Virus record (IMG/VR): IMGVR_UViG_3300046820_000088
Span: 1-64,000 of that record
Strand: one strand, 5' to 3'
DNA: 64,000 nt
DNA from: a virus
Each line of letters opens with the position of its first letter. Within the stretch, counting starts at the first letter, position 1. The notes below the pieces were generated by a model. It did not search any database. It had not been told where the DNA came from and saw only the letters and a list, made by a program, of their open reading frames with translations. The position numbers were made by a program, and so were the translations under genes. Below are positions 1 to 50,760 of the stretch, piece by piece.

Positions 1-321
1 CTGTTGTGCTGCTTGATCAGCAGGCGCTGCACTTTGCGCTGCTGGAGCCGTACCTTGTGTAGGAGCAGAAGCTGTTCCTGTCTTTGCTGCCGGTGCGGTC
101 GCTGCTGCCGGCTCCTCTTCGTCGCCTGCTGTTGCAACAGTTTTCTTACCTGCTGCAAACCCTTTCTTGAGTGCTGTGCCCATGCCTGCAATACCACCTG
201 CAACTGCTCCTGCACCTTTAGCAACTGCGCCAACACCTTTTCCAACGGCCGACCCTATTTTATTAAGTATAGGACCTTCTTGTATCTGCTCCGATTCTAC
301 AAGTATTTCGTTTAATCTCAT
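1..321 (-). CDS. Ala/Gly-rich putative head-internal/virion protein (N-terminal part, runs off the window)
   Basis: Not in the ORF track. The ATG at 321-319 overlaps the upstream stop (TAATG). Translation MRLNEILVESEQIQEGPILNKIGSAVGKGVGAVAKGAGAVAGG... stays open to position 1. Confidence 0.8.
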   Translation of the reverse strand, partial: MRLNEILVESEQIQEGPILNKIGSAVGKGVGAVAKGAGAVAGGIAGMGTALKKGFAAGKKTVATAGDEEEPAAATAPAAKTGTASAPTQGTAPAAQSAAPADQAAQQ

Positions 322-1973
322 TATGCTACTCCAATCTGTTTATTTAAGTATTTTAATAGCCTAATTTTTCTATCTGTAGGCAATGCAGATATCATTTTCT
401 TAATGGACTCAATATCAACAGGTGCAGCTTTATCCATGGTTGGTTCCTGCAGACCTGGTGCAGCAGGTATTTTTAAATCACCATAAACAGTATCAACTAT
501 TCCTTGATCTACACCCTGTTGTGTTAAAAATGCTTTGAGTTCTTCACTATCAGTCGGTGCGCCTGCTTTCTGCCAAGCAGAGTTTAATTTGTCAGCAGTA
601 ACTTTAGTTGTTAGGTTTTTACCTTTGGTTTGTAACCAGCTGGCAGCTTTTCCAGCAGCGCCTTTAATTGCATCTAATGGGCCTTCCGTTAGTTGCCCTT
701 CAGCTAATGCTGTGTCGTTTAGTCTGCAAACACGATTAAAGACTAGGTATACTTGTCCTTCACTTAGAGGTCTAGTAGTCCTTGCAATACTTTCACCTTG
801 CATACTTTTTAGTAATGCAGCAGCTTTTTCTTTGCTGATCATTGGTCTAGGATGCTCACCGCTGATAACTTTCTGAAGATAGTCTGCACTGTAACCAGAT
901 GCTGCGTTACCTGCGGCATTTGCAGCAGCACCTACAGCTTGTCCGCCATTTTGTGCTTGCCAGTCCAGAGCTTTAGCAGCATCTTCTGGATTTATTTTAA
1001 ATCTAACTCCGCTCTTTCCGCCAGCGTCAACTACACGTTGTAGATATTCTGGGTCCATGCCTGCACCGTAGGGCTGAGATGTAGCAACATCAGCTGCTTT
1101 AGATGCAACGGATGCTACAGCATTGTCGTCTGGTATTCCTGGCATGCCTGCTCGTTGAGCCAACATAGGATTCATCTTCATAGACTGTCCCAGACTAGCT
1201 TTGTCTAACTTCTCAAAATCAGTTTTAAAACTAGAAGGCGCTGCGTCGGGTGCATTGTTAGGACCTCTCATGCCCAAACGAAGTGATCCATCTGGATCGT
1301 TTGGGTCAATGCCCTGTGCTCTCATCTGCTTAACATAATCAGAATCACCGGAGGCAGTTGGAGTAGCTTCGGGTTTGCCTTTGATCATGTCGCCAATCTT
1401 ACTAGCGCCATAGGCCATAGCGCCGGTCTTTGCGCCTGAATAGGCAGCGGAGCTAAATTTTTCACCCTGTAATAGTTTGTCTGTCATTTTTAACAGACCT
1501 AAAACTGCTGCACCACCTAGCCCTGCACCGCTGATACCAGCAGCAGCAATCAATGCTGAATAGATTATACCTTGTGCAATAGGATGTTCTTTGGCAAACT
1601 TACGATATTTTTGAATTACTTGGTTAACTGCATTGTCAGGGCCGCCTAGACCCTTTTCAATCTTAGCAACAGCACTGTCGTATGCGCTGTCTACATTTTT
1701 TACAGGACCAGAGTCCTGTACTTTTGTCTTTAGATCTTCCCAGGCTTTATTTACAGCTTCGGCAGCATCTTTGCCCTTGCCTATCAATGTACGATTACCG
1801 CCTGCTGCGGTAGCACCCTGCTCTACATTCTGAAATATCTGTTGTATTTGATCAGCTGTTAGTGCCGCTTCCTTTAATTTAAAGCCAGCACTTTCCCATA
1901 GCATCATGGTATTGCTTTCTATACGATTTAGATCTTCATAGAGATAGTTGTTTTGAATATTTGTTAGACGCAT
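321..1973 (-). CDS. Ala/Gly-rich putative virion internal (ejection-type) protein, 550 aa
   Basis: Long ORF with a TAAATA box upstream (1999-2004), L-x-E motifs (LYE, LSEG, LTEG) and one hydrophobic segment (IAQGIIYSALIAAAGISGAGLGGAAVLGLL). Function is inferred. Confidence 0.55.
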   Translation of the reverse strand: MRLTNIQNNYLYEDLNRIESNTMMLWESAGFKLKEAALTADQIQQIFQNVEQGATAAGGNRTLIGKGKDAAEAVNKAWEDLKTKVQDSGPVKNVDSAYDSAVAKIEKGLGGPDNAVNQVIQKYRKFAKEHPIAQGIIYSALIAAAGISGAGLGGAAVLGLLKMTDKLLQGEKFSSAAYSGAKTGAMAYGASKIGDMIKGKPEATPTASGDSDYVKQMRAQGIDPNDPDGSLRLGMRGPNNAPDAAPSSFKTDFEKLDKASLGQSMKMNPMLAQRAGMPGIPDDNAVASVASKAADVATSQPYGAGMDPEYLQRVVDAGGKSGVRFKINPEDAAKALDWQAQNGGQAVGAAANAAGNAASGYSADYLQKVISGEHPRPMISKEKAAALLKSMQGESIARTTRPLSEGQVYLVFNRVCRLNDTALAEGQLTEGPLDAIKGAAGKAASWLQTKGKNLTTKVTADKLNSAWQKAGAPTDSEELKAFLTQQGVDQGIVDTVYGDLKIPAAPGLQEPTMDKAAPVDIESIKKMISALPTDRKIRLLKYLNKQIGVA

Positions 1974-2008
1974 TCTAGGACTCAGCAGTATATTAGTTTA
2001 TTTATTTG

Positions 2009-2030
2009 AAAAAAGAGCTAAAGCTCTTTT
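2009..2030 (-). terminator. Intrinsic terminator-like hairpin
   Basis: Perfect inverted repeat AAAAGAGC-TAAA-GCTCTTTT (2011-2030). On the minus strand the GAGC/GCTC stem is followed by T6. Confidence 0.55.
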
Positions 2031-2475
2031 GCGTTATCGCTTGCGCTCAACGCATTTTTCTTTTTTTAACACTGACTTATATAGTTAACTGCGAAGCAGT
2101 TTTTAATATTATCTAGATTGTTCAGTCACACTTTGCCCTTGCGGGCAAAAAATGAACATTATCTGAGTTGAACATGATCACTTAACGTTACAGCATTACC
2201 AAGGCGGTCGTCCGGTACCTTTAGCTGCGTCTTTATACGACGGCGGGTCTATACACATACGTTAACATATGTATAGCCGTGGGTTTTTCTCCCTCTTTTA
2301 GCCTTTTAAAATATTTTCAAACAGCAAAACCAGTTGTATGAAGGCATATCTGATCGTGGTCCTGTTAAGGATACTTGCTGAGTACTCTTTGCGGCGAGAG
2401 ATTTCTGTCCGGGCGTAGTTAAACCCCTTGTCCTAGGCGTCCGATATTTGCTAACGCTTGCTTTACTACCGCTGA
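2031..2475 (-). ncRNA. Candidate large structured non-coding RNA (family not recognised)
   Basis: The only long gene-free stretch in the window. It has many stems, e.g. 2087-2101, 2119-2158 (GCAA tetraloop on the minus strand) and 2249-2276 (G-U pairs on the minus strand). Confidence 0.5.
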
Positions 2476-2919
2476 TTACTTGCCTGTGGGTTTTGATTTT
2501 TTGAGGATGTGTGAGCCGTGAACTCGAACCTGTATATGACCGTTGTACCAATCATTAGATTCTAGAACTTTATGTTTGAATTGTTCTCTTGCCTCGATGT
2601 AGCTGCATTCAGATTTAGTTGTGCAGTAAAATAGAATTTCTCTGGTGAAGTTTTCTTTGCCTAGTGCCTGTATGTCTGCTGTTAGCGCATCGCTAGAACC
2701 GTAATAGTCCTTCCAATCGCTTTCAATTTTGCCTCTGATTTTCTTCTTTTTCTTTTTGCCGTTTTTAAGTGTAACTGTTTTGTATGTGGTTTTTGCGAAC
2801 TTTGCTAGTTTTTTGCCTATATACTTACGTCCAGAGATGACATTGGTAATAATGTAGACGAATCCGATGTATTCGTCAGAAATCTCAGTAACTTCTTTCT
2901 TTTTATAGTACCATGTCAT
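2476..2919 (-). CDS. GIY-YIG (Seg-like) endonuclease, catalytic domain only
   Basis: GFVYIITN..SGRKYIGKK, DYYGSS, FTREIL, catalytic E (YIEARE) and YN motifs. No C-terminal DNA-binding module. Confidence 0.8.
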   Translation of the reverse strand: MTWYYKKKEVTEISDEYIGFVYIITNVISGRKYIGKKLAKFAKTTYKTVTLKNGKKKKKKIRGKIESDWKDYYGSSDALTADIQALGKENFTREILFYCTTKSECSYIEAREQFKHKVLESNDWYNGHIQVRVHGSHILKKSKPTGK

Positions 2920-3149
2920 CCCTTATGTATCTTAGGGGGTCTGCCTACCATGCCTTTTCTGGACTGTTTGCGTTTGTGCCTTTTATCTTGTATTTCTACT
3001 CGCCTAATACTTGCCTCGTTTCTTATTTCTGATAACCAATATCGTGCCTTTATGCCTGCTTCGTCAAAGCCTTTATATTCAAAACGATCCTGCCACTTGA
3101 AGTATTCTTGGAACGCTTTGATTAATCGGTCGTGTGCATCAGTGCTCAT
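2916..3149 (-). CDS. Small basic protein, possibly Hc1/histone-H1-like DNA-binding
   Basis: KG..EAGIKAR..L.E motif recalls the GNKAAGTRARK motif of bacterial Hc1-like proteins; basic C-terminal tail; ATGA overlaps with neighbours. Confidence 0.4.
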   Translation of the reverse strand: MSTDAHDRLIKAFQEYFKWQDRFEYKGFDEAGIKARYWLSEIRNEASIRRVEIQDKRHKRKQSRKGMVGRPPKIHKG

Positions 3150-4924
3150 TGTACAATTTCTACGTCATTACTGTAACTTGTAAATCCGTTTTCTTTGATA
3201 ACCTTTAAAACATGGTTAACTCTACTGGTAAGATCGTCGCGATGGGAGATTAAGAACACATTTTTATTACGTTCTCTAGTCATTTTCTTAAGAACTGCAA
3301 TGCTGCTTTCTACACCGCTAGCATCCATCCCAGAGTCTACTAACTCATCGATAAACAGTAGATTTATACTGTGATATAGGTTTTCCCAAACATCACGGAA
3401 CGCCCAACTTAGACTTAAAATGAGTCTATTTCGCTCACCTCTGCTGAGATTATCGAAGTCTAAGTCCTGTCCTAACTGTGTAATAATGACCGATAAATCG
3501 TTCTGAAATTCTACAATATGCGGTAATCCGATCTTGTCAAGATAATAGGTCAACCGTTGATTTAAGAACGCTAGGTTCTGATCAATGATCCTTTTACGTA
3601 TAAAAGAGTCTTTATTAGTTAATAACTTATATAGGAATTCTTGGTGATCTTTAAGAGTTGTAAGTTCGTTAATAACAGTCCAATCGATATTTTGAACAGC
3701 AGTCTTTTGTAAATCGGATATTTGATCTTCATACGGGTTAATATCGGCATGTTTAGTCAACAGTTCTTTTTCTAAACTGCTAACAGTATTTTTATGATCT
3801 AGGGCTTCTTCTAGATTGTTGTAATGAATACTGGGACAGCTACCTAGTTCTCCTAGCTCTGTAAGCGTTTGTAGGTGCTCAAAACGCTGCGTGTCGTTCG
3901 CAAGCAACTGCAATGCTGTCTCTTGAAGATTTTTTTGTTTTTGCTGTTTAATTTCGTCTTGTTTAGAATCATGGATATCCTGCCCACAAGCATAGCACTT
4001 GTGATCTTCTAGCGATTCAATATCACGACGTAGTTGTTCTAAGGTTTTATTCAGCTTTTGATCATCTAACTCAATAGAACGAATCCATTTATTGGTTTCG
4101 TCGATCAGTTTTCTTTTGGCATTATATACTTCTAAATCTCGATGTGCTTGTATTTCAGCATCGATATCAATATGACTTAGATAATCTATACTTTTAAGTA
4201 GATCTTCTATCGACTTTTCTTTAGAATCGTCCCAGATTTTCTTTTTTCTTTCAAGTGAATCGATACTTTCTTGAATCTTTTGATTACTGATCTTAACAGT
4301 TTCGATTCGAGTGTTTTCAGTATTGATTGCATCTTTAGTTATTTTGATTTGATCTTTAAGAGCATCTGCTTTCTCAGATAACTGTGTTATTCCTAATAAC
4401 TGCTCAATAATGCTCCGCTGATCAGCTGCCTTCATTGACAAGAACGGCTCGGTATATGTGTTGAGGGCCACCAGATGTTTGAACATTTCATGACTCATAC
4501 TGAACAACTCTTCGATAGATTTTTGAGTTTCTCTACTATCACCTTGACTTTCGTCTTTGTCCTCAGCTTCAACTTCGTGCCCGTTTACACTAAACTTTAA
4601 AAGATTAGGCTTACGCCCTCTTTCAATATGATATTCAACACCGTCTTTTTCGCAGGTAATGGTTACTAACATGCCTTTACCGTTGATCTTGTTGATTAGA
4701 TTATCTTTTTTGATATTGGTAAGTGCTTGCCCATAGATAGCATAACTAAGACCGTTAATGATAGTAGTTTTTCCAGTACCATTACGAGCACCACTGTCGT
4801 CCCCGCCTAGATCTAAGTTTTCACCTAACACTAGTGTTAGTTGACCTTTGTCAAAGTCTATAGCCTGGGTTTGATTACCCACACTCATAAAGTTTCTTAC
4901 TGTTAGATTTTTTATCTTAATCAT
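3146..4924 (-). CDS. 46: Recombination endonuclease ATPase subunit (T4 gp46/Rad50/SbcC-like)
   Basis: Walker A NGTGKTT, zinc hook CYAC in a coiled coil, signature LSRGE, Walker B LLFIDE, H-loop ISH. Confidence 0.93.
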   Translation of the reverse strand: MIKIKNLTVRNFMSVGNQTQAIDFDKGQLTLVLGENLDLGGDDSGARNGTGKTTIINGLSYAIYGQALTNIKKDNLINKINGKGMLVTITCEKDGVEYHIERGRKPNLLKFSVNGHEVEAEDKDESQGDSRETQKSIEELFSMSHEMFKHLVALNTYTEPFLSMKAADQRSIIEQLLGITQLSEKADALKDQIKITKDAINTENTRIETVKISNQKIQESIDSLERKKKIWDDSKEKSIEDLLKSIDYLSHIDIDAEIQAHRDLEVYNAKRKLIDETNKWIRSIELDDQKLNKTLEQLRRDIESLEDHKCYACGQDIHDSKQDEIKQQKQKNLQETALQLLANDTQRFEHLQTLTELGELGSCPSIHYNNLEEALDHKNTVSSLEKELLTKHADINPYEDQISDLQKTAVQNIDWTVINELTTLKDHQEFLYKLLTNKDSFIRKRIIDQNLAFLNQRLTYYLDKIGLPHIVEFQNDLSVIITQLGQDLDFDNLSRGERNRLILSLSWAFRDVWENLYHSINLLFIDELVDSGMDASGVESSIAVLKKMTRERNKNVFLISHRDDLTSRVNHVLKVIKENGFTSYSNDVEIVQ

Positions 4925-4976
4925 AGTTTTTTCGGATCAACTTTTATTTTATATTCTTTGCTGGCAAACGTAAACT

Positions 4977-5987
4977 TCATAGGTCCTTGTAGATATCTAA
5001 CAATAGACCCTTGTTATAGCTGTCGCTTTCGATAGCATCGATCTGATTCATTACAATAGTGTCAACACTTTCGAAGGTAATATCTACGGGTGTAGTTGCA
5101 CTATCTACTTCTACTTTTTCTGGGATCAACATAAGCTCGCGTAACTTATACTGCGGCATAAATGTTTCTTTGATAAAGTTAGCTTCTTCAAAACTGATAG
5201 GCAAGTCAATAGTTACACGACAGTGCATCTTTTCACGCAACAGTTTTTCAGGAGTATCGATGATTTGACTTAGCTTATAGGTTCTAAAAGTAGGTTGATC
5301 GGGCCATGCTTTAAACTCGGGCTTGCCTCCCCACTCTAGAATCATCATTCCTCGTTCGTCGTCGCCGGAGTCTGCGTAGTTGTGCGGGAAAGCATTTCCA
5401 ATGTACCAAATGTTTTGTGCATTTTGACGTTTATGGAAATGGCCGGTAAAAACGTATTCCTGATTTACAAAGTGACTGCTCTGTACTTGCCCATGATCAG
5501 GCATCTGTACCATAGCGTTCATGTAGAAGCTAGGCAACTCTAAGTGACCGAACAGATACCTACTTTGAATACTTGGAATCTTTTTCCACTCGTCTGCAAT
5601 CAACCAAGGCATGATAGTTACATCGTCTTGCGTTAATGTTTCGTTAACAACGTGAATGTTAGGAAACAGTCTTGCAAACTCTAGACTGTGAATCTCTCTT
5701 TTATCTTTGTAGAACTCATCATGATTGCCCATGATGAGATACACTTTTTCAAAAGAGTTGTTTAACTTTTCTAAATTACTGACGGTATAGTTCATAGTGC
5801 TAACGTCAGTGGTATTGCGATTGTGATGCCAATCGCCTAGGAAGATTGCAGTTTCACAACCTTCCTTTTGTGCAGTATCACAGAACCAGTTTACGAAATC
5901 TTCGCAGTCCTGGTTGTGTGTACGACTACCTGATTTAAGACCAAAGTGTATATCAGTAAAACACGCTACTTTCTTGAATAGTGACAT
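4977..5987 (-). CDS. 47: Recombination endonuclease nuclease subunit (T4 gp47/Mre11/SbcD-like)
   Basis: Metallophosphoesterase motifs DIHFG, GDWHH, GNHD, GHFH; adjacent to gp46. Confidence 0.93.
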   Translation of the reverse strand: MSLFKKVACFTDIHFGLKSGSRTHNQDCEDFVNWFCDTAQKEGCETAIFLGDWHHNRNTTDVSTMNYTVSNLEKLNNSFEKVYLIMGNHDEFYKDKREIHSLEFARLFPNIHVVNETLTQDDVTIMPWLIADEWKKIPSIQSRYLFGHLELPSFYMNAMVQMPDHGQVQSSHFVNQEYVFTGHFHKRQNAQNIWYIGNAFPHNYADSGDDERGMMILEWGGKPEFKAWPDQPTFRTYKLSQIIDTPEKLLREKMHCRVTIDLPISFEEANFIKETFMPQYKLRELMLIPEKVEVDSATTPVDITFESVDTIVMNQIDAIESDSYNKGLLLDIYKDL

Positions 5988-6028
5988 AGAATCTCCTTTA
6001 ATAGTTTACTAGAATGTAACTACTAAAA

Positions 6029-6883
6029 TCAATCCCAATCACCACCTCCTTCGCTCATTCCGCCACCTCCTCCACTATAGGTATTTCCCGTAGAGTTTTG
6101 GCGAGTCCAAGAAGGATTCATTCCATTCATTTCTAAAATATCGTCTCTAATGTTTTGATTACGCTTCTCAATGTTGATAATTCTAACGAATGAATTAGTG
6201 ACAGCAGCAGTATAGTAAGCGAAAGGATTATCAGATTTGCTTTCATCGAATTGAAGTCCTATTTGAGTTAACTGAAGAATAGCCTGCCCACGCATTTCGT
6301 CGTTATAAGTATAGCCACGAACGTTGCCTCTAGTTGCATATCGTTCGCATAGCTTAATGAACATGCGAGCCAGATTGTTTGTCATGGTGCCGTGTTCTTT
6401 ATTAAACGAACCAGTCTGTAGATCTCCCTTCCAATGGCTTTTACCTACTAGAACTAGGTTGTCGTTCTCGTCAAACTTCCAGTGTTGGAATGGAGGAAAG
6501 TTTACTTTTTCGTGGCTGTCTGCTGTGTTCTTAAGAGTCTTTTTACGACCGGGTGCTAACGGCACATGCTCAAAAGTCATTACTCTAAATACCAAATCAG
6601 TTTTTTGGATTTTTTTATAATCGATTTCGTAGTCTTTAGCTGCGGCCTTTTTAACTGTTAACTGCGCTGTTTGATATGCAAGTTTTGATAGTTTGGCAGC
6701 TTTATTTCGTTTGGCTTCTGCAATAGTTCGTATGTTTAGCTTTTCTAAGCTAGGCACAATCAAGTCATAATCTGAATATTCCGGACTTGTAAACGAGCAG
6801 TATGTATTTTTGCTAAGATGTATTTCTCTGAGTAGGTCCTTGTTTGTAAGGTATTTTACCTTAGGTGGTTGTGTTATTGTCAT
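6029..6883 (-). CDS. 55: Late-transcription sigma factor (T4 gp55-like)
   Basis: YLTNKDLL N-terminus; GYTYNDEM...FDESKSDNPFAYYT...NSFVRII..EK matches the gp55 core; gp55-47-46 synteny as in T4. Confidence 0.85.
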   Translation of the reverse strand: MTITQPPKVKYLTNKDLLREIHLSKNTYCSFTSPEYSDYDLIVPSLEKLNIRTIAEAKRNKAAKLSKLAYQTAQLTVKKAAAKDYEIDYKKIQKTDLVFRVMTFEHVPLAPGRKKTLKNTADSHEKVNFPPFQHWKFDENDNLVLVGKSHWKGDLQTGSFNKEHGTMTNNLARMFIKLCERYATRGNVRGYTYNDEMRGQAILQLTQIGLQFDESKSDNPFAYYTAAVTNSFVRIINIEKRNQNIRDDILEMNGMNPSWTRQNSTGNTYSGGGGGMSEGGGDWD

Positions 6884-6931
6884 AGATTAGATTTTCCCCA
6901 ATGCTTTAATAATAGCACATTTTGTCAAGAA

Positions 6932-6937
6932 TAAATA
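6932..6937 (+). promoter_or_regulatory. Late promoter box TAAATA for the baseplate/tail operon
   Basis: ATAAATA lies about 25 nt before the ATG at 6962, followed by GGAG. The same hexamer recurs before other structural genes. Confidence 0.65.
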
Positions 6938-16050: not shown

Positions 16051-19000
16051 ATGTCAGATAAAAAATTCCCTAACAGCGATCTTCCAATCAGAAAAACTTC
16101 TGAACTATTACCAAAGGTATTTCAAACGCCTGCCAACGAAAAGTTCATGGCAGGTGTTCTTGATCCTTTAGTACAGCCGGGCGTATTGGAAAAAACAGTC
16201 GGGTACATAGGACGTCGATACGGAAAAACCTACAAAGGTAGCGATGTCTATCTTGACAGCGATAACACCCTAAGAAGTAGATACCAACTAGAACCTGGAG
16301 TCGTTGTCACAGAAAACAATAAGATTTCGAAGTTTTATGATTATATTGATTTTAAAAATCAACTGAGATTCTTTGGCAACACCGAAGAACGCGATGATCT
16401 TGTAACTGCACAAGAACACTATGCATGGAACCCACCTATTGATTGGGACAAGTTTGTTAACTTTAGAGAATACTACTGGGTTCCAGAAGGACCGCCGGCA
16501 ATCACTATTACTGGGCAGGCACAAAACATTGTTAGTGGGTATACTGTTCGTTTAGGTAACAACTCTACTTATGTCTTTACGCCAGATGGATATACAGTTA
16601 ATCCTACCTTAACTTTATACAGAGGACAGACATACAAGTTTAACGTTAATGCTCCTACCGATGGGCTAGTCTTTAGATCTGTCTACGATTCTGGAAGTCC
16701 TTTCCAGTCTCCTATTGAGTATAAAAAAGGCGTAACAAACAATGGAACTGAGAATGGAGTTATAACATTTACAGTTCCATTCGACGCACCGGACATGATT
16801 TACTATCAAAGTAAAGTTGATGTTAATCGTCTAGGTAGATTTATGATTTCCGATGTTGAATCAAATACAAAGATTAACATTGAAAAGGAAATATTAGGAA
16901 AGCCTACATACACTAGCAGCAATGATATTGTTCTGAGTAACGGTATGAACGTTAGATTCACAGGAATGGTTACTCCTGAAAAATATGCATCAGATACATG
17001 GATTGTTGAGGGTGTTGGATCTGCTATTCATCTAGTAAGGCTGCAAGACCTAGTAGTTTCACCGGCATTGAATGCCAACGTACCGGAAGTTCTATTTGAT
17101 AACGCAGGCTTTGATGCCGATCCTTTCGATGATGCAACAGCTTACCCATTGTCTAAGGACTATGTTCTAATCAATAGAGCAAGCCCTGATAATAATCCTT
17201 GGAGTCGATACAATCGTTGGTTCCACCGCAGTGTTCTTGAACAAGCACATGCATTTAACAATTCTAGTTTTGAATCCACAGAAGAAACTAGAGCCAAGAG
17301 ACCAATTATAGAGTTTAACATTGGTATACAACTTTATAATCACGGTTCCATTGCTAAAGCCACTGTTGATTATGTTGACACGTTTACAACTGATGTATTT
17401 TCTAAGATCGAAGGTAGTCTTGGCTATAATGTCGATGGCGAGCAACTTTTTGAAGGTGCCCGCCTACTAGTAATAAACGATTCTGATTCTTTAGTAAACA
17501 ACAAGATCTATAAAGTAACTTTTATTACTCATAATAATACAAAACAAATCAGCTTGAGAGAAACAGAAGATTCTGTTTCAAGTATCGGCGAGGGTGTATT
17601 AGTTCGAAGAGGAAATGTTAACAAAAGTTTAATGTACCATTTCAGCGGTACTGCCTGGGTTAAAAGTCAAGAAAAAACTGCAATAAATCAAGCTCCTATG
17701 ATTGATGCGTTTGATAAAAACGGTGTAAGTTTTTCGGATACTGATACATATCCTGTAAGTTCTTTCAAAGGAACAGAACTTGTAAGTTACAAGAAGGGAG
17801 TCAGCGTTGTTGATAGCGAACTAGGATTTAGTCTAAGTTATTTGAATATTGACAACGTAGGAGATATTGAGTTCGAGTTTGATTGGGATAAAGATACCTT
17901 CACTTATCAAAATCAGCAGTTTGTATTATCTAAGAAAGTAAACTCTGGATTCTTTAAGTTTAACCCTGCAGGAGAATACGATAACGGTTGGAAGAAGTCA
18001 GCAGAAAAATACATTCAGGCTATTATTGACAGCCAGATCATTTCTGCTCCTACTTCTACTGTGCAGTTTAATACCGTTGATTGGAATACTGATAAAGCTC
18101 TCGAAATATATTTTTATATTAATGGAAAAAAATATACAGGGGAGTTTTCAAGAGCAGGGTCTAATTTTACATTAGGCCAAACATTAGCTGCAAACGATGT
18201 AGTTGTAATAAAAGTATTCGGTGACATTATTCCGAATCAAGGATATTACGAAATCCCTGTTGGCTTAGAAAAGAATCCTTTGAACTCTAACCTACTTGAG
18301 TTTACATTAGGAACTGCATCTGACCATGTGTCAACAGCAATTGAGTTTAATAATGAGTTTATTGGAAGCTATCCTGGAAACAGTAATCTTCGTGATTTGT
18401 CACCGTATATTACTCACGGAAAGAGATTTTTAAAACATGCCGGCATTCCATCGGTTGCAATATCTTTGTTATGCGACAAAGATGTTAACTTAATCAAGTC
18501 TTTACAGTTTTCTAAAAAGTCATATACTGAGTTTAAAAATAACTTTGTAAAGTTGTCAACAACTTTATATTATAATCAAACCCCTGCTGATTTTGTAGAT
18601 GACATCTTGTCAGAAATGGCGAGAACAAAAACATCTATCACACCATTCTCGGATACCGACATGGTTGGTAGCGGAGCACATACAAAAATTGAATATACTG
18701 TTGAAGATACAGGCATTAAGACTTTTGCATTGTCTTCTAAGTTTAGTCTTGATACATTAAGTAGAAAGGCAGTCTATGTCTACCTCAATGATGTTCAACT
18801 ATTAGTTAATACACAATATGAGTTTAACTCGTCTTTTGGTTTTGTACAACTAAAAGTAGACCTGCAAGAAGGCGACAGAATTGAGATTAGAGAATATGCA
18901 TCTACTGCATATAACTTTATTCCAGCAACACCTACAAAACTAGGACTGTATAAAAAATACACTCCTATGATATTTGTTGACAACACCTATGTAACACCTC

Positions 19001-22000
19001 GTACTATGATACAAGGTCACGATGGTAGTCTAACAACTGCCTACGGAGACTTTAGAGATAACGTTATATTGGAGCTAGAATATAGAATCTATAACAACAT
19101 CAAACAAGAATACAACGAAGAAGTATTTGATATTGATAAAGTTTTAGGCGGCTATTATGGATCCGGATTCTACAATAAAGAACAACTGGACCTTATTGTT
19201 AATAGAGAGTTTTTAAAATGGATTGCAGATACAAATATCGATTATATTAATAATCAATACTTTGATAGCGAAAACCCATTTACCTATACCTATTCTAGAA
19301 TGTACGATCTAGCCGGATCTACTAACCTACCAGGATACTGGAGAGGAGTTTACAAGTGGTTCTATGACACTGATCGTCCTCACCGTTGTCCGTGGGAAAT
19401 GTTAGGATTTTCAGAAAAACCAGCATGGTGGGAAAGCGAATATGGCGTTGCACCATATACCAGCAACAACATGCTATTATGGGAAGATCTTAGAGACGGA
19501 GTTATTCGTCAAGGATCTCGAGCAGGTGTCCACCAACGTTATAAGAGAGAAACACTTTTATCTCACATTCCGGTAGATGCCGATGGTAACCTATTAAATC
19601 CTTTAGATGCAGGACTGGCGCAAGGTTTCTCTTTAGTAAACAGCAAGGGAGATTTTAAACTTGGTGATATTGCTCCTGTAGAACATGCGTGGAGATCTAG
19701 TTCTGAATGGCCATTTGCAATAATCATAGCAATGTCTTTGATGAAACCGTTTGAGTTTATCACCGATAGTTTGGATAGATCAAAAACAACAACAAACATA
19801 TTAGCACAAACAGTCAGTACGTCTACTGATTTGTTTTTAACATTATCTGATATTTCTGTACCAACAGTAACTGGATTACAAACTACAGGTCTAATAAACT
19901 ATATTGCCGATTATTTAAAGAACAAAAATCTTAACGATTCTGCAATCACAAATATCCTACAGAATATTGACGTTAAGTTGACTTCTAGATTGTCTGGATT
20001 TGTTGATCAGCAACAACAGAAATATATCTTAGACAGCAAAAATCCAAGAGCAACTTCCAGCAGCGTATTTGTCCCTCCGGAAAACTATGACATTATATTC
20101 AATGTAAGTTCTCCTATTTCTTTTATTTCATACAGTGGTGTGATATTTGAAAAGACTGAAAATGGCTGGAAGATAAATGGTTACGATAATGCTGAGCCTT
20201 TCTTTACATATTTTGAGCCAGTTCCTAGTCAGGTTGATCCGTTAATGAGAGTTGGCGGAGTTAGTGAGAGTTTTTACGAATGGACTGCTGAAAAGTTTTA
20301 TGGCAATGGAGTTATTGTTCGGTACAATAACGAATACTATAGAAGTTTAAAGAGCCATACTAGTGAAACAACATTTACTAATACTAGTTGGAAAAAACTT
20401 CCATCATTACCATTGACCGGTGGTGTAGAAGCATTTAAGAGAAGAACGTTTAATACTTTAAGAACAAAGCAACTCACCTACGGAACTATTCTAACTACGA
20501 TTCAAGAGGTAGTAGATTTCTTATTAGGTTATGAAGTTTATCTAAAATCTGTAGGATTATTATTTGACGGATATGATTCTGAAACACAGACTGCTAAAGA
20601 TTGGACAACAGCTTGTAAAGAGTTTATGTTCTGGACCAAGCACAACTGGGAAGCCGGATCATTATTGACTCTAAGTCCCTCGGCAAATAAAATTGAAATA
20701 TCCTTATCAGTTGGTGTTGCAGATAATGTATTAGATAGTTTTTACGATTATCAAATATTAAAAAGCGACGGAACTCCGTTGGCTCCTGCCTACATAAATG
20801 TAACCAGAGATTTTCAAAAGTTTTATTTAGAAACAACTAATACCCTTGAAGGTATCTACTACCTAAAAGTTTATTTCGTTCTAAAAGAGCACGTTGCTAT
20901 TTTTGATGATAGGACAGTGTTCAATGACGTTATCTATGACAAAACAACTGGATATCGTCAAGAACGAATCAAGACTCGTGGATTCCGTACGGTTGACTGG
21001 GACGGTGATTACACTAGCCCCGGATTCTTGTTTGATAATGTAAGAATAAACTCTTGGCAACCGTTTGTTGATTACAACCTGGGAGATATTGTAAGTTATA
21101 AATCTTATAACTGGGTTAGCAACTTTAATCAAACGGGAACAGAAGAGTTTGATAATGAAAAGTGGAGCAAACTAGATAGTACACCTACAAAATCTCTAGT
21201 GCCAAACTTTGATTATAGAATTAATCAGTTTGAAGATTATTTTGATTTAGATGCATATGGGCTAGGCTCTAGTCAACGCGATCTAGCAAGACATGCTATT
21301 GGTTATCAAACCAGAGACTATCTACAAGAACTAGCTGAAGACGAAGTAAGCCAGTTTAAGTTATATCAAGGCTTTATCAGAGAAAAAGGTACTTCTAATT
21401 CTGTAGTCAAAGTATTTGACAAGTTAAGCAGAACAACAGACGACAGTATTGTCCTTAACGAGGAGTGGGCATTTAGAGTAGGTCGTCTTGGCGGAACGGA
21501 CCAGTTGAGAGAAATTGAGTTTAGAATAGTTAAGGACAAACTAGAAATAAATCCACAGCCTATGCTGGTATTGCCTACGGTATATTCTGGATCTATTGTT
21601 GATCAATACCTCAGAATCAATCCTACAGACTTTACAGTAGCCGACACTCCTTTTACTGCTGAAATAAATCCAGTTGCACTGTATGACGGTCAAAATAGAT
21701 CAGCCGGCTATGTAAAGACAGACCAGATTAACTTTACAGTTAGAACACGAGACGATATTTTAGATCTCAATATCTACAGCTTTGTAGAAAATGACAGCGT
21801 CTGGGTAACATTTGATGGACCGTCTTGGTCTGTTATAAGATATAACGAATCTCCGGTCTTGTCAGTTGAGTCGTTTGAAAAATCTGGAACAACAGTTACT
21901 ATCAACACCAATAGAAGCCATACACTTGCTGTTGGTGATATTATCGGTCTAAAGGATGTTATAAATCTAACAGGATTCTTTAAACTAACCGACATTGGTT

Positions 22001-25000
22001 TTAGAACTTTAACTGTTGAAGTAGCCGAAGGTGTTGAAAATCCAGAGTTTGACTCCAGTACAACAGTAAACATTCATATGTTTACAAACGCTAGATTTGG
22101 GTCATATCAAGATGTTGATCCTAGACAAGTCGCATTGTTGAAGTATGGATCAAAACTATGGATTGATTCTAACGAAGACAATCTATGGGAAGTTGTTGAG
22201 AAAACTCAACAGTTTTCTGTCAAGGATCTAGCAGACTACGGAACAAGTACTCCTGAACAGACAGGTTATGCTATCAAATATATTGACAGTTTGAAGCAGA
22301 TTATCTCTAGTATGCCTAGACAAGGATTTGTGATGTCCTATGTTGAAACCTCGGCAGGACTAGGATTAAGACAAATCATTGCACCGTCAAGTGATTACAC
22401 TTCTAAAATAGCATATTCTTTTGGTAAGTCATTGGATGTTACTCCTGATGCTAAGTTTATGGTAGTTGGTTCTCCGGATGCAGGATATATTACATCGACG
22501 TTTAGAGGAGACTTTGATTTCTCTGGACAATACTTTATTGGAGAAACAGTTCTCTTCGAAGGAAGACTTTGGACAGCAGTAAACGATGTTGTTGGTGATG
22601 GCAGCAGTATTAATGTTTATAATCAAGATTGGAAACTAGAAACTCTTCTAGTTGGAAATCCTATAGGCCGCGGAGTTGGCTACGGTAATCAAGGCATGGT
22701 TACTATATTCAAGTGGCAAGACCAACAGTGGACTGAAGACTTAACAATCATTAGTCCGCGACCTTCCGACGGCGAACATTTTGGACACAAGGTTACACTG
22801 GCACAATCTGGTTCTACATATTATATGGCAGTTTCTGCTCCTGGATCCCAAGATAGCAGAGGTCGTGTATACTTGTACATTTACGAAAACAGTCAATGGA
22901 GGCATTTAGAATCTACTGCATATCAAGGCCTATATACCAACGGAGAGTTTTATCCGGCCGATACAATAGTTTGGTCAAATGGTTCATTATGGGAAGCTAC
23001 TTCGGATGTTACCGGAACTTCCGGAGGCCTAATAGTTGATTCTTTAAGCTGGACAAAACTAGATCCTATTGCAACATCCTGCTCTTTGCCTAAAAACGTA
23101 ACAGTTGACGACGACGGTTCTACACTTGAGTCCGGAATGTTGTCAGGCACTGACCTAAGCGAACTAACCAAACAAGGCGATCAGTTTGGTTCAGTTATGT
23201 CTATGAATAGAGATGGTAGTATCCTAGTTGTTGGTGTACCGTTGAGTGACGACCAATACTTTGCAAACTATCGCGGAGACTGGAAGTTATGGGAAACATA
23301 CACTGAGGGTGATGTTATAAGATACTATGATCCAGCAGAAGGATATTGGACTTATCATAAACTTGTTGATCCAAGAGAAGATGTTGAAGATTCTTCTATT
23401 GTATACACAAATACTGGAACAGAACCAGTTGGCAGTCCTTGGGAAAATGTCGGCGACAGTACAGTAAAAACTACTGGTAAGGTCTACGTCTATCAAAGAG
23501 ATGCTAACAAGCGATATTCACTCAAGCAGACAATCTCTGCAGGTTCCCTAGTCGACATCAATGATCTAGGAACAACCGAAACCATCAGCTCAGGCGATGA
23601 ATTTGGTTATAGTTTAGATATTGATTCTACCGGAACAACTATTGTAGTAAGCAGTCCAGAAGCAGATATTAATGGACAAAATCAAGGATCTGTTTATATT
23701 TTTAAAACAACTGATTTTACAAACTTGTCTTACAGACTAAAGCAGAAAATCGAAAGTTTTGAAAACTTTACAAATGAGTTTTTTGGATCAAGTGTGAGCA
23801 TTAGTGCAGGTACCGAGAGAGTAATAGTCGGTGCTAAAAATGCTCCTTACAAACTGGTAACTAGATTTGATACAGGTTTAGGCACATACTTTGATCAAGG
23901 TAAAACAGTTTTCTCAGAAAGTCAAGGGTATCCTGGGCAAGTCTATGTTTTTGAAAGAAAAGATCAACAGTACATGTTGGTAGAAAAACTACAAGCAGAG
24001 TTAATCAACAATGAATCTTTTGGATTTAGTGTTGACTGTACATCCTCAGTTGTAGTTGTTGGATCTCCGACTTACAAACAAGAAGATGTATTAGTTGGCA
24101 GAATAAGACTATTCAAGAAGAGTACTACAGAAAACTCCCTCAAGACACTATCGAATCAAACTGATCTAGTTGATATATCAAAGTTAAAAACTATTTCTTT
24201 ATATGATCCTCAAAAGAATGTTAAGATCTCTGACATTGATATTGTTGATCATTTCAAGATGAAAGTTTTAGGTATTGCAGAACAAGAGATCAAGTTTAAG
24301 ACAATGTATGATCCTGCAATTTATAATGTAGGAACAGAAGACCAGGTAGTTGATAACAGTCAAACATGGTTTGAAAAACATGTCGGTGAACTATGGTGGG
24401 ACCTAAACACTGTAAAATGGATCAACTACGAACAAGGGGATATTTCTTATCGTGCAGGTAACTGGAACAGTCTAGCATTTGGTGCTAGTGTTGATATTTA
24501 CGAATGGGTAGAAACTCCTTTATTGCCTTCCGAATGGTCGCTTATTGCTGATTCAGTAGAAGGCCTAGTTAACGGCATTTCTGGACAGCCTTTATACACC
24601 GACGATACTGTTTATTGTGTTAAAGAGATATACAATACTTCAACAGGCCTAACTACCGGAACATTGTATTACTATTGGGTTAAGAATAAAAAGATTTTAC
24701 CCACTGATGTTACTGGAAGAAAACTTGCTGCAACAGAAGTTGCAGCATTGATTGAATCCCCTGCATCTTCTGGTACTCCTTTTATTGCCTTTATTGATAA
24801 AGACAAGTTCTTGGCCTACAACTTTGATTCATTAATATCTGCTGATACAGCATTAATGAATATTCAGTATCTAAAAAATACCAAGCCATTAAATCTAATA
24901 CACAACGAGTATCAGTTATTAACTGAAGCACAAGCAGATAGCTTGCCGAGCGCATCTTTAGAAACTAAGTGGATTGACAGCTTAGTAGGCTTCGATCTAA

Positions 25001-29598: not shown

Positions 29599-29606
29599 AT
29601 ATACTT

Positions 29607-46336: not shown

Positions 46337-47681
46337 TATACTCTGGAAATAGGGTGTGAAAGTCTGTTCCTAATCTTTTGTCGTTTTCTGTAAAGAAACT
46401 ATAGAAGTCTCTGCGTCCTTGTTTAATCTTTTCGTCGCTGACTGGATTTTCTCTCATGTAATCTACTACACGCTTGAACACTTCGTACTCTAGTTCGTTA
46501 AATCCTACAGCTAGTCCATTAGACATCATGTTGTCTTTGATAAACTGTAGATTATCTGACATGTACTGATTGAAGCTTTCTGGTAAGATATTGATCATCC
46601 AGTGTGGAGGTTCTTTTAAGTACGGAGTATCGAACTGCACACGTTGATGCCACGGAGTTCCTGGATAGTCTCTTCTAAGTTCTAAGATCTTTTCCAACAG
46701 TGTTCTAAAGTTTGCAACTGTTAGTACATTAAAGGTAATCATAAAACTGATATCTTGTTGAGGAAGATTATCTAGATAGTATCTAAGATTCTTTTCCCAA
46801 AGAACAATGTCTAACCCAGTGCGAATATATTCGGCTTGTGGCCCCCAGGTGTCGATACTGGTATACAACTTAAACCCTTTGATGGCTTTTTTCTCTAATA
46901 ACACCTTAACATGATCAACTAGTTTTTGTACAAGTCTGTGTGTTACTCCTAGATTACTGTTAAGATGAATTTCTAAGTGCGGACTAGGATCGTTTTCCAA
47001 CATCTCTAACATCTTAAATGTATTCGGATTCATCAACGGCTCTCCGCCTGTGATACGGAACACACGTAGATCTTTCTTAAGACTAGGCCACCATTCCCAG
47101 AATGCATCTACATAGGGATTGGGGTCATCTTTATTAAAAAATTCGCTGTAATTTAAAAAATCGATACCATACTGATTGTATGTTAGATCGTAGTTGCCGT
47201 GTCTCTTTACTTCTTCCATCCAACTACTAGATGCCTGAGGGCAGCAATATCCACATCTAAAGTTACAACCGTTTCCGAAACTAACTTCGAGATGTCTAGG
47301 ATTCCAATCGGCTTCCCAACCACCGGCAACAATATCGTCGATTGTAGAGTCGATATAGTTAGAACTGTGCTTCATGCGATCACTAATATGCTCGCCCGGC
47401 AAGTCTTCAATATTCCAGCAATAATAACATTCTTGAGGTCTGCCACCCTCCATCATTTCTTTACGTTGTTGTTTTTTCCAAGGTGTATTATGTAATGCAC
47501 TAGGATTGTCTTTCAGCAACGTTTTGTCAATTTTGTGTGGCCGTGGATGATAGCAGCTATGATTATCTCCCATGTGAAGATATAGCGTTTCCATATTCCA
47601 TTTTGCTAGACAAAATCCTTTGCCTACTTTGTTTAACTGGTCTCGTGTATCCTGTATAATCTCGATGTATTTTCTTGTCAT
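46287..47681 (-). CDS. Radical SAM enzyme with N-terminal Cys/His domain
   Basis: FCLAKW..HSCYHP..CYYCW.IED; CNFRCGYC; ITGGEP; SID. Confidence 0.88.
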   Translation of the reverse strand: MTRKYIEIIQDTRDQLNKVGKGFCLAKWNMETLYLHMGDNHSCYHPRPHKIDKTLLKDNPSALHNTPWKKQQRKEMMEGGRPQECYYCWNIEDLPGEHISDRMKHSSNYIDSTIDDIVAGGWEADWNPRHLEVSFGNGCNFRCGYCCPQASSSWMEEVKRHGNYDLTYNQYGIDFLNYSEFFNKDDPNPYVDAFWEWWPSLKKDLRVFRITGGEPLMNPNTFKMLEMLENDPSPHLEIHLNSNLGVTHRLVQKLVDHVKVLLEKKAIKGFKLYTSIDTWGPQAEYIRTGLDIVLWEKNLRYYLDNLPQQDISFMITFNVLTVANFRTLLEKILELRRDYPGTPWHQRVQFDTPYLKEPPHWMINILPESFNQYMSDNLQFIKDNMMSNGLAVGFNELEYEVFKRVVDYMRENPVSDEKIKQGRRDFYSFFTENDKRLGTDFHTLFPEYSEFMAICKTEYENYGK

Positions 47682-50752: not shown

Positions 50753-50760
50753 TATTTATA
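50753..50760 (-). promoter_or_regulatory. T4-consensus late promoter TATAAATA
   Basis: Exact T4 late consensus 8 nt upstream of the ATG at 50744. Confidence 0.65.

What the first reader, a model, noticed from the sequence alone, without database searches (positions are those of the whole stretch)
1974..2475. A ~500-nt multi-helix non-coding element directly behind a stand-alone GIY-YIG nuclease
Seen: this is the only large gap in a genome whose genes otherwise abut or overlap. On the minus strand it reads as a chain of stems: CUCU..AGAG, CCU-UAAC-AGG, GGG-AGAAAAA-CCC, CUAUACAUAUG..UAUGUGUAUAG (2249-2276, with G-U pairs), CGUC..GACG, AGG..CGG-ACGA-CCG-CCU, and UGUUCA..UUUGCCC-GCAA-GGGCAAA..UGAACA (2119-2158). 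A repeated AGAUAAU flanks the last helix, and three further hairpins end in a U-tract terminator near 2009. The G-U pairs and the GNRA loop favour an RNA on the same strand as the nuclease. The nuclease lacks a DNA-binding domain but has a Lys-rich insert (KNGKKKKKKIRGK). Inference: a large ornate ncRNA, possibly an RNA partner or guide for the nuclease. A replication origin is the alternative.
Basis: partly seen in the sequence, partly recalled or inferred. Interest (0 to 1): 0.8.

Follow-up and report, generated by a model that had tools for sequence, protein, structure and literature searches.

The report
Full-length twin-box Polynucleobacter-1 phage RNA
The gene-free gap behind a small nuclease gene of this uncultured giant T4-like freshwater phage encodes a real, knotted non-coding RNA of about 450 bases. 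Its first third is an orphan RNA motif catalogued in 2010, and the uncatalogued rest carries one 7-letter word twice for an unknown reader. The nuclease looks like a mobile neighbour, not the RNA's partner.

Summary
Window 1974-2475 is the only long ORF-free gap in a 98% coding window, and its minus strand encodes a structured RNA (about 2462-2010).

The novelty claim holds only in part. Bases 2462-2319 are a full-length match to Rfam RF01718, Polynucleobacter-1 (79.3 bits, cut-off 37). The remaining ~310 nt are not in Rfam but are conserved in over 160 distinct phage loci. They have strong covariation, two pseudoknots and two tandem modules. Each module shows an 11-nt box: ACUC+AGAUAAU at 2168-2158 and AUCU+AGAUAAU at 2118-2108. 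The 7-nt word takes 20 forms, changes at least 51 times on a tree, and is almost always identical in both boxes. No complementary partner lies in the RNA or nearby.

The guide-RNA idea is not supported:
- In marine relatives the GIY-YIG gene is inverted relative to the RNA.
- In some loci a PD-(D/E)XK nuclease replaces it.
- In others an inserted ORF separates it from the RNA.
- It occurs without an adjacent RNA, for example in cyanophage P-SSM2 and phage Melnitz.
- Its synonymous sites are far less diverged than those of the neighbouring SbcCD genes, as expected of a mobile Seg-like homing endonuclease gene.

The RNA's function is unknown. My best guess is that it presents one word twice to an outside nucleic acid. 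Earlier agents of this scan found the same RNA on other genomes.

The parts
2010..2462 (-). Full-length structured non-coding RNA (about 450 nt): Polynucleobacter-1 domain plus an uncatalogued 3' region. The ends are inferred, not mapped.
   Evidence: Sequence conserved across the whole gap in 68 of 80 related loci. On alignment A1, 87.7% of cells are paired against 37-41% in slid controls.
2319..2462 (-). 5' domain, a member of Rfam RF01718 (Polynucleobacter-1 RNA)
   Evidence: cmscan 79.3 bits against a gathering score of 37, E 3.5e-15, model positions 1-141 of 141.
2249..2276 (-). Long hairpin whose loop (2264-2260) forms pseudoknot A
   Evidence: Ten of 11 pairs show compensatory changes (helices 8-9).
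2183..2187 (-). 3' strand of pseudoknot A, pairing with hairpin loop 2264-2260
   Evidence: All 5 pairs show double changes and 96.1% of cells are paired (helix 10).
2201..2221 (-). GGUACCGG-ACGA-CCGCC hairpin, nearly invariant. Its loop 2211-2208 pairs with 2240-2237 (pseudoknot B).
   Evidence: Pair 2239-2209 is CG:30 / UA:28; pair 2238-2210 is GC:34 / AU:19 / GU:5.
2190..2228 (-). Long-range helix (2228-2224 with 2194-2190) that closes the GGUACCGG domain
   Evidence: Pair 2227-2191 is CG:23 / GC:20 / AU:6 / UA:6 (helix 12).
2158..2168 (-). Box 1: invariant ACUC followed by the 7-nt word AGAUAAU
   Evidence: Identity covariation with box 2. Twenty word types occur in 167 distinct RNAs.
2108..2118 (-). 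Box 2: invariant AUCU followed by the same word AGAUAAU
   Evidence: As for box 1. Three one-letter exceptions are known: L034, L278, L309.
2132..2149 (-). Module 1 hairpin UUUGCCC-GCAA-GGGCAAA, between the boxes
   Evidence: 79.7% of cells paired and conserved (helix 16).
2088..2100 (-). Module 2 hairpin ACUGC-UUC-GCAGU, after box 2
   Evidence: 90.7% paired; 4 of 5 pairs show double changes (helix 18).
2013..2053 (-). Two 3' hairpins: a GA-internal-loop hairpin (2053-2031) and the terminal hairpin (2028-2013), which here carries a U tract
   Evidence: Compensatory changes in all pairs of helices 19-21. The U tract is absent from most relatives.
1999..2006 (-). AATAAATA, a T4-type late promoter for the downstream gene. 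It marks the 3' limit of the RNA region.
   Evidence: WATAAATA occurs 5 times in the window (15.8 expected by chance); four of the five sites lie a few to about 25 nt upstream of an ORF start. The motif is conserved in A1.
2476..2919 (-). 147-aa GIY-YIG nuclease gene (SegE-like): a neighbour, probably a mobile homing-type gene
   Evidence: PF19835 at 114.5 bits; I-TevI catalytic domain Z 8.8. Fourfold-site identity is 0.69-0.83 against 0.37-0.53 in SbcC/D.
3146..6883 (-). Upstream operon on the RNA's strand: late sigma factor gp55 (6029-6883), SbcD/gp47 (4977-5987), SbcC/gp46 (3146-4924). A 77-aa basic ORF follows at 2916-3149.
   Evidence: PHROG and Pfam hits. The synteny is kept in nearly all related loci.

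Best explanation
Shown. The gap encodes a stand-alone, highly structured non-coding RNA of about 450 nt on the minus strand.
- Its 5' third is the Rfam motif Polynucleobacter-1.
- Its 3' two-thirds, not in Rfam, hold two pseudoknots and two tandem modules.
- Each module is a conserved single strand (GUGAC, 5-8 nt, A, then CUC or UCU), then a 7-nt word, then a tetraloop hairpin.
- The RNA sits at the 3' end of the gp55-SbcD-SbcC operon of a large clade of uncultured aquatic T4-like jumbo phages, just before a late promoter.

Inferred, step 1. The GIY-YIG gene beside it is not its partner. It is a Seg-like, mobile homing-type nuclease gene that occupies a hotspot next to a highly conserved RNA gene, much as T4 segB sits among tRNA genes (the segB comparison is from my own knowledge).

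Inferred, step 2. The RNA acts in trans as a folded scaffold that presents the same 7-11 nt single-stranded word twice. The word base-pairs with an outside nucleic acid that comes in two copies or has two-fold symmetry: two identical RNAs, or the two strands of an inverted-repeat DNA site. Because both boxes must read the same partner, every change of the word is mirrored in the other box.
For: RNA and structure:
- RF01718 at 79.3 bits.
- The whole gap is conserved in 68 of 80 loci.
- 87.7% of cells are paired against 37-41% in slid controls; 70 pairs show compensatory changes; 0 of 500 shuffles reach the observed values.
- Pseudoknots A and B are 96-98% paired with double changes.
- G.U cells outnumber A.C cells 455 to 110.

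Twin words:
- Mutual information between the boxes is close to the full column entropy, and no internal Watson-Crick partner exists.
- Twenty words occur in 167 distinct RNAs, with at least 51 changes on a tree built without the words. There are three one-letter exceptions.
- The flanks ACUC and AUCU never homogenise.

Independence from the nuclease:
- GIY is inverted in 46 of 48 marine loci while the RNA keeps the SbcC strand.
- A PD-(D/E)XK nuclease (PF24608, 94-105 bits) fills the same slot in 5 loci.
- An ORF is inserted between GIY and the RNA in 7 loci.
- GIY occurs without an adjacent RNA in L072, L082, L088, Melnitz and P-SSM2.

Mobility of GIY:
- Fourfold-site identity is 0.69-0.83 against 0.37-0.53 in SbcC/D.
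- Nucleotide identity is 94-99% inside GIY, 65-80% in the flanks, and 42-54% at the GIY/RNA junction.

Separate downstream unit: a late promoter at 1999-2006 and a variable downstream gene.
Against: - No partner was found. No complement of the word lies in the RNA, within about 4 kb either side, in five large related contigs or in this 102-kb record. Those records are only 25-55% complete, and host genomes could not be searched.
- No transcript ends or strand-specific expression are shown. Metatranscriptome contigs of 90-95% relatives cover the region, but DNA carry-over cannot be excluded.
- Most word changes are A/G transitions, which a partner with U could tolerate without mirroring.
- Both boxes lie within 60 nt, so recombination can move them together and inflate the count of 51.
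- GIY sits next to the RNA in about 85% of RNA loci and in both orientations, so some functional tie cannot be ruled out.
- Low synonymous divergence of GIY could also reflect a nucleotide-level constraint.
Confidence: 0.5

Rival explanations
1. The RNA is the partner or guide of the adjacent GIY-YIG nuclease. The word would program the nuclease, as omega-RNA (the former HEARO motif) programs IscB.
For: GIY lies next to the RNA in 70 of about 79 RNA loci that have room upstream, and stays adjacent even when inverted. The protein lacks a DNA-binding domain and has a conserved Lys-rich beta-hairpin. The word is short, variable and single-stranded.
Against: Proteins 97% identical sit beside different words. 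A PD-(D/E)XK nuclease or no nuclease occupies the slot in some RNA loci. Homologs in P-SSM2, Melnitz, L072, L082 and L088 lack an adjacent RNA. The GIY gene shows a horizontal-exchange signature that its neighbours lack. A 7-nt word present twice is unlike known guides.
Confidence: 0.07
2. It is a self-assembling architectural RNA like ROOL or GOLLD. The twin boxes would be symmetric contacts between copies of the RNA or with a capsid or protein lattice, not a reader of another nucleic acid.
For: It is large and pseudoknotted, phage-borne, has many invariant single-stranded nucleotides, and has no partner detectable in cis.
Against: Contacts between copies made by base pairing would show as complementary covariation with another column, and none exists for the word. 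There is no Rfam similarity to ROOL or GOLLD.
Confidence: 0.1
3. The boxes are codon-like specifiers that bind two tRNAs of one kind (a T-box-like or decoy function). The middle of the word reads AUA/AUG, CAC or CGA and is followed by an invariant A that could face U33 of the tRNA.
For: Position 6 of the word is A in all 167 RNAs (0 changes on the tree). Words in different clades have sense triplets in the middle. T4-like phages manipulate tRNA pools (my own knowledge).
Against: All seven positions are mirrored between the boxes, not only three. Full complementarity to an anticodon loop would often put a pyrimidine at position 37. No tRNA-elbow-binding motif was identified, and there are no tRNA genes in this 102-kb record.
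Confidence: 0.08
4. It is a cis-acting element: a 3'-UTR stabiliser or terminator of the SbcCD-GIY operon, a leader of the downstream late gene, or an RNA-primed replication origin.
For: It sits at the operon's 3' end and starts within 15 nt of the GIY stop codon. It ends here in a hairpin with a U tract. T4 origins use R-loops (my own knowledge). RNase H lies beside it in L135.
Against: The downstream gene varies and has its own late promoter. The U tract is missing in most relatives. Two conserved pseudoknots and about 450 nt of constraint far exceed what a terminator or an R-loop primer needs.
Confidence: 0.1
5. The identity of the two words is a by-product of gene conversion between the two ~27-nt repeated modules, not a functional requirement.
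For: The modules are direct repeats about 50 nt apart in a recombination-proficient phage. Three one-letter discordant cases exist.
Against: The four bases just 5' of the word differ between the boxes (CUC against UCU) in every sequence and never homogenise. Discordance is only about 2% despite at least 51 changes.
Confidence: 0.08

Closest known systems
Polynucleobacter-1 RNA motif (Rfam RF01718; Weinberg et al. 2010, Genome Biol 11:R31, PMC2864571)
   Same: Window 2462-2319 matches the whole 141-position model at 79.3 bits. The habitat (fresh water) and the position next to the GOS11034 / PSSM2_218 gene family match what the authors noted.
   Different: Rfam models only 141 nt and calls it an sRNA of unknown function. 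Here the conserved RNA runs about 310 nt further, with two pseudoknots and the twin boxes. The 3' part is the more widely kept: L032, L054, L077 and the marine clade lack a detectable 5' motif. The authors found none in purified phages; here it lies in phage contigs.
GOLLD (RF01998) and ROOL (RF03087), large ornate RNAs of phages and prophages
   Same: Several hundred nucleotides, many pseudoknots, phage-borne, function unknown.
   Different: No sequence or structure match in Rfam searches. Different genomic setting. No twin identical boxes are described for them.
HEARO / omega-RNA of IscB (a nuclease-associated RNA that proved to be a guide)
   Different: Here the nuclease can be inverted, replaced or absent. 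The variable part is 7 nt and is present twice, and it does not track the protein.
T4 Seg-type free-standing GIY-YIG homing endonucleases (SegE family PF19835; I-TevI catalytic domain 1LN0)
   Same: The neighbouring protein matches PF19835 (114.5 bits) and the I-TevI catalytic domain (Z 8.8, rmsd 2.6 A over 82 residues). It sits between conserved genes, in either orientation, with a horizontal-exchange signature.
   Different: It is only 147 aa, lacks the C-terminal DNA-binding domains of Seg proteins and I-TevI, and has a Lys-rich beta-hairpin instead. It is near-universal in the clade rather than sporadic. Cleavage and homing are untested.

Membership tests
Rfam RF01718 Polynucleobacter-1 RNA | Covariance-model score at or above the curated gathering score (37 bits), over the full model | tested here: met
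   79.3 bits, E 3.5e-15, model positions 1-141 of 141, window 2462-2319 minus strand.
Rfam RF01718 Polynucleobacter-1 RNA | The family's helices are kept with compensatory changes in relatives | tested here: met
   Helices 1-6 are 79-98% paired. For example, pair 169-240 reads CG:23 / UA:21 / GC:11.
Rfam RF01718 Polynucleobacter-1 RNA | Genomic context next to GOS11034 / PSSM2_218-like genes (authors' note) | tested here: met
   The upstream gene is 41% identical (E 1e-24) to PSSM2_218. The authors' note is in the PMC2864571 supplement.
   None appears even at E up to 5 on 1800-2700. ARAGORN finds no tRNA or tmRNA.
GIY-YIG nuclease superfamily (neighbouring gene) | GIY-YIG fold and motifs (GIY ... 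YIG, conserved Arg, Glu, Asn) | tested here: met
   PF19835 at 114.5 bits. I-TevI Z 8.8, UvrC N-terminal domain Z 5.5, T4 EndoII Z 5.3. Invariant G19-F-V-Y22, Y33-I-G35, R93, E109 and N126 in 13 homologs.
Free-standing homing endonuclease (Seg-like) | Site-specific cleavage of genomes that lack the gene, and preferential inheritance | not testable with these tools
   Only indirect signs: low synonymous divergence, a mosaic junction, both orientations, and replacement by another nuclease family.
RNA-guided nuclease system | Obligate co-occurrence of RNA and nuclease, with a guide segment that tracks targets | tested here: not met
   The RNA occurs with a PD-(D/E)XK nuclease or none. GIY occurs without an adjacent RNA. 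GIY is on the opposite strand in 46 of 48 marine loci.

The most novel reading that the evidence does not exclude
The twin-box RNA is a programmable bivalent guide for DNA. Its two identical words would pair with the two strands of an inverted-repeat site, which read the same 5'-3', or with two copies of one site. This would bring a two-fold-symmetric DNA structure to the neighbouring recombination machinery (SbcCD, plus a GIY-YIG or PD-(D/E)XK structure-specific nuclease). That would be an RNA-directed step in phage recombination, concatemer processing or exclusion of rival genomes, and the fast-changing word would set its specificity.
Probability: 0.03. Interest if true: 0.9.

Novelty: new variant of a known kind. 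Interest (0 to 1): 0.6.

Why it matters
Polynucleobacter-1 has been an orphan 141-nt motif since 2010. The real unit is a ~450-nt, doubly knotted phage RNA, common in uncultured freshwater and marine T4-like jumbo phages. That places it among the few large bacterial or phage RNAs of unknown function, a class that has repeatedly yielded new biochemistry.

Two separated boxes that always carry the same fast-changing word is a kind of covariation (identity, not complementarity) that standard RNA tools do not look for. It gives a direct experimental handle: mutate one box, then both.

The work also clears up a tempting false lead. The nuclease next door behaves like a mobile gene, not like an RNA-guided effector.

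Tried and rejected
1. Known large RNAs. Only RF01718 reached its threshold. Weak hits (cow-rumen-2 at 20 bits, CRISPR repeats at 17-19 bits) are chance level. No tRNA or tmRNA was found.
2. Internal partner of the word. Mutual information over all column pairs gives no Watson-Crick partner for the variable positions. The apparent pairing of box 1 AGAU with box 2 AUCU fails in the GC-type words.
3. Partner in cis. The exact complement or a third copy of each locus's own word within about 4 kb is no commoner than for other words. The small peak at -1420 is an SbcC coding motif (TAT TAT CTA GAT) seen only with one word.
4. Partner elsewhere in phage genomes. TTATCTRRR in the 102-kb record gives 15 hits against 14 in the control. 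One exact extra copy of the box 2 11-mer, at 46777, lies in a coding Y-L-D-N stretch. Five large marine contigs show no consistent excess of own-word complements. These records are 25-55% complete, so this is inconclusive.
5. Neighbouring proteins as readers. GIY (97% identical), SbcC (96%) and the 77-aa protein (88%) all occur with different words.
6. Translational bypass (take-off and landing codons followed by a stop, as in T4 gene 60). Words of the marine and other clades carry no stop codon, and no conserved ORF runs into the boxes.
7. Cultured relatives. No homolog of the RNA was detectable by nhmmer or box search near SbcC in PA5oct or 121Q, behind the GIY homolog of Melnitz, or in PA5oct ncRNA002.
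8. Expression. Metatranscriptome contigs of 90-95% relatives cover GIY plus the RNA's 5' domain (643 nt) and the module region (5.6-kb contig). These are contigs only, so there is no strand or end information and DNA carry-over is possible.
9. blastn of the gap against 50,697 phage records found no match.
10. Foldseek against the PDB gave no significant hit for the nuclease model. The wider VIA-align search was needed.
Full report
**Setting.** The window is part of a 102-kb IMG/VR virus record, 29% complete by CheckV. It belongs to a T4-like jumbo myophage. It encodes the late sigma factor gp55, SbcD/gp47, SbcC/gp46, a gp5-like baseplate hub and a 4515-aa ORF. Its nearest cultured relatives by DNA are PA5oct-like and Rak2/121Q-like phages. 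On the minus strand the gene order is gp55 (6883-6029), SbcD (5987-4977), SbcC (4924-3146), a 77-aa basic ORF (3149-2916), the GIY-YIG ORF (2919-2476), the gap (2475-1974) and a 550-aa Ala/Gly-rich ORF (1973-321).

- A greedy ORF cover is 98.2% coding, and 1974-2475 is the only true gap over 120 nt.
- cmscan against Rfam 15 finds one family above threshold in the whole window: RF01718 Polynucleobacter-1 at 2462-2319 on the minus strand, 79.3 bits against a cut-off of 37, covering model positions 1-141 of 141. The 5' third of the "novel" element is therefore a catalogued motif.
- Weinberg et al. (2010) described that motif from freshwater metagenomes and one Polynucleobacter genome. They noted that most copies lie downstream of GOS11034-family genes "with possible homology to PSSM2_218", and that none was found in purified phages (PMC2864571 supplement).
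- PSSM2_218 of cyanophage P-SSM2 (mis-annotated "NAD synthetase") is 41% identical, E 1e-24, to the window's GIY-YIG protein. The gene-RNA link was therefore already seen in 2010, although the gene was not recognised as a GIY-YIG nuclease.

**The RNA is much longer than the Rfam model.**
- Homologs of the GIY-YIG protein occur in more than 433 IMG/VR contigs. In 68 of the best 80 loci, blastn aligns almost the whole gap, not just the Rfam part.
- A 59-sequence alignment (A1) shows invariant blocks far downstream of the motif: UAUCCUUAACAGGAC, GGUACCGG...ACCGCC, two boxes, and UGAGCG..AGCGAAA. A conserved (A/U)AUAAAUA lies just before the next ORF.
- WATAAATA occurs only five times in the window (15.8 expected by chance), and four of the five sites sit a few to about 25 nt upstream of an ORF start. 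The copy at 2006-1999 is therefore a T4-type late promoter that bounds the RNA on its 3' side.
- The downstream gene differs between loci. The RNA is therefore not that gene's leader.

**Structure.**
- 87.7% of cells are paired, against 37-41% with partners slid by 1-3 columns.
- 70 pairs show changes on both sides.
- The covariation score is 0.404, against 0.06-0.08 in slid controls. No shuffle out of 500 reaches any observed measure.
- Well supported: the Rfam helices; GGG/CCC (2293-2281); the long hairpin 2276-2249; the long-range helix 2228-2224 with 2194-2190 (pair 2227-2191 reads CG:23 / GC:20 / AU:6 / UA:6); the GGUACCGG hairpin; and four 3' hairpins.
- Pseudoknot A pairs the loop of the long hairpin (2264-2260) with 2187-2183. 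All five pairs show double changes.
- Pseudoknot B pairs 2240-2237 with the ACGA loop 2211-2208. Pair 2239-2209 reads CG:30 / UA:28.
- The strand call rests on the Rfam hit and on 455 G.U cells against 110 A.C cells. Folding energy alone barely separates the strands (z -2.4 against -1.95).

**The twin boxes.**
- Mutual-information analysis found column pairs that covary by identity rather than by complementarity: 2164/2114 (AA:34, GG:24), 2163/2113 (GG:46, CC:13), 2160/2110, 2170/2120 and 2169/2119.
- These pairs belong to two tandem modules. Each module has a conserved strand (GUGAC, 5-8 nt, A), then CUC (box 1) or UCU (box 2), then a 7-nt word, then a tetraloop hairpin. In the window the boxes are ACUC-AGAUAAU (2168-2158) and AUCU-AGAUAAU (2118-2108).
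- Across freshwater and marine loci I found 20 different words in 167 distinct RNAs, for example AGAUAAU, GGAUGAU, GCAUAAU, ACAUGAA, ACCACAG, GCCACAG and AGCACAU. In each RNA the word is the same in both boxes.
- On a maximum-likelihood tree built with the words removed, the word changes at least 51 times: position 1, 29 times; position 5, 16; position 7, 14; position 2, 5; position 6, never.
- A search that did not demand identity turned up three one-letter exceptions: L034, L278 and L309.
- The four bases just 5' of the word differ between the boxes in every sequence. Simple homogenisation by gene conversion is therefore unlikely.
- No column elsewhere in the RNA is complementary to the variable positions.
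- No complement or third copy lies within about 4 kb, in this 102-kb record or in five large related contigs.
- The natural reading is an outside reader that must see the same sequence twice. This is most simply a nucleic acid present in two copies or with two-fold symmetry. That step is inference, not a result.

**Is the nuclease the partner?** The protein is a genuine GIY-YIG enzyme.
- Pfam PF19835 matches at 114.5 bits.
- The AlphaFold model has pLDDT 85. Its best structural match is the I-TevI catalytic domain (Z 8.8, rmsd 2.6 A over 82 residues), followed by PD-T4-3, UvrC and T4 EndoII.
- The Lys-rich insert is conserved and is modelled as a long beta-hairpin.

Five results argue against an RNA-nuclease machine.
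1. I searched for the RNA first, using the pattern GGTACCGGNNNACCGCC followed by nhmmer. Of 91 RNA loci, 70 had GIY upstream (seven of them with a ~1-kb ORF in between), 12 had no room upstream, and 9 had no GIY. In five of those nine, the gene between SbcC and the RNA is a PD-(D/E)XK nuclease: PF24608 at 94-105 bits, PHROG "RusA-like resolvase".
2. In the marine clade, 46 of 48 loci have the RNA on the strand opposite to GIY but on the strand of SbcC, where SbcC lies within the locus (36 of the 46). The nuclease gene is therefore inverted in place.
3. Homologs without an adjacent RNA exist: L072, L082 and L088 (62-72% identity), Melnitz (52%) and P-SSM2 (41%).
4. Nucleases 97% identical sit beside different words.
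5. The nuclease gene has a different history from its neighbours. Identity at fourfold-degenerate sites is 0.69-0.83 in GIY against 0.37-0.53 in SbcC and SbcD of the same loci. Nucleotide identity is 94-99% inside GIY, 65-80% in the flanks, and drops to 42-54% exactly at the GIY/RNA junction.

This mosaic, the two orientations and the replacement by another nuclease family fit a mobile, Seg-like homing endonuclease gene parked next to a very conserved RNA gene. T4 segB sits among tRNA genes in the same way (my own knowledge). Cleavage and homing are untested.

**Expression.** Two freshwater metatranscriptome runs hold contigs of 90-95% relatives that cover GIY plus the RNA's 5' domain, and the module region. 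Contigs give neither strand nor ends, and DNA carry-over cannot be excluded, so this is weak evidence.

**Verdict.** The feature is real and belongs to a known but unexplained Rfam family. Its full architecture (about 450 nt, two pseudoknots, twin identical boxes) is not in Rfam or in the papers I could search. I rate it a new variant of a known kind. The guide-RNA reading is not supported, and the function remains unknown.

Earlier agents of this scan reached the same description on other genomes. Three points here do not appear in the notes I saw:
- the nuclease swap and inversion;
- the synonymous-site evidence that the nuclease gene is mobile;
- the identification of PSSM2_218 as this gene.

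Noticed in passing
window 16051-29598 (+): A single ORF of 4515 aa, one of the largest phage ORFs, inside the structural gene block. Not examined.
   Followed up: no
window 1999-2006(-), 6930-6937(+), 29594-29601(+), 47799-47806(-), 50753-50760(-): WATAAATA is three-fold depleted (5 sites, 15.8 expected). Four of the five sites sit a few to about 25 nt upstream of an ORF start; 47799 lies about 115 nt upstream of one. This phage seems to use T4-type late promoters with its gp55-like sigma factor.
   Followed up: partly
window 2916-3149 (-): A 77-aa very basic protein with no family sits between SbcC and the nuclease. It is far more variable (37-84% identity) than its neighbours. It is not tied to the word: copies 88% identical occur with different words.
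   Followed up: partly
window 2242-2228 and 2240-2208 (-): The local hairpin CGUC/GACG and pseudoknot B use the same bases (2240-2239), and both are compatible with the alignment. This may be a conformational switch.
   Followed up: partly
window 2234 and 2134 (-): A further identity-type covariation (UU:23, AA:17, GG:7) links a base in the loop before pseudoknot B with a base in the stem of the module 1 hairpin. It could be a base triple or an alternative pairing with 2147.
   Followed up: no
L054 2452-3429; L072 2855-4021; also L136, L141, L142, L151, L189, L190: An ORF of 325-388 aa with no Pfam or PHROG family follows directly after the GIY gene, or a ~1-kb insert separates GIY from the RNA. 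In L072 no RNA was found. The slot looks like an insertion hotspot.
   Followed up: partly
L135 749-1168 (-): An RNase H gene (PF00075, 151.6 bits) lies between the PD-(D/E)XK nuclease and the RNA in one locus.
   Followed up: no
L103 2377-2456 (+): A tRNA gene (58.7 bits) lies about 40 nt downstream of a 49%-identical GIY homolog in a MAG contig. This recalls T4 segB in the tRNA cluster.
   Followed up: no
L082-L110 (genome contigs): GIY and RNA loci turn up in MAGs labelled Saccharibacteria, Haliscomenobacter, Polynucleobacter, Bifidobacterium, Pacearchaeota and others. These are almost certainly phage contigs mis-binned into bacterial and archaeal bins.
   Followed up: no
L314 (PA5oct MK797984.1 21951-22401, published ncRNA002): This highly expressed, unexplained 451-nt RNA of a cultured relative shows no homology to the twin-box RNA. 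It does carry UAUGCUU three times at a spacing of about 45 nt.
   Followed up: partly
window 321-1973 (-): The 550-aa Ala/Gly-rich protein behind the late promoter has no family. It is replaced or missing in close relatives.
   Followed up: no
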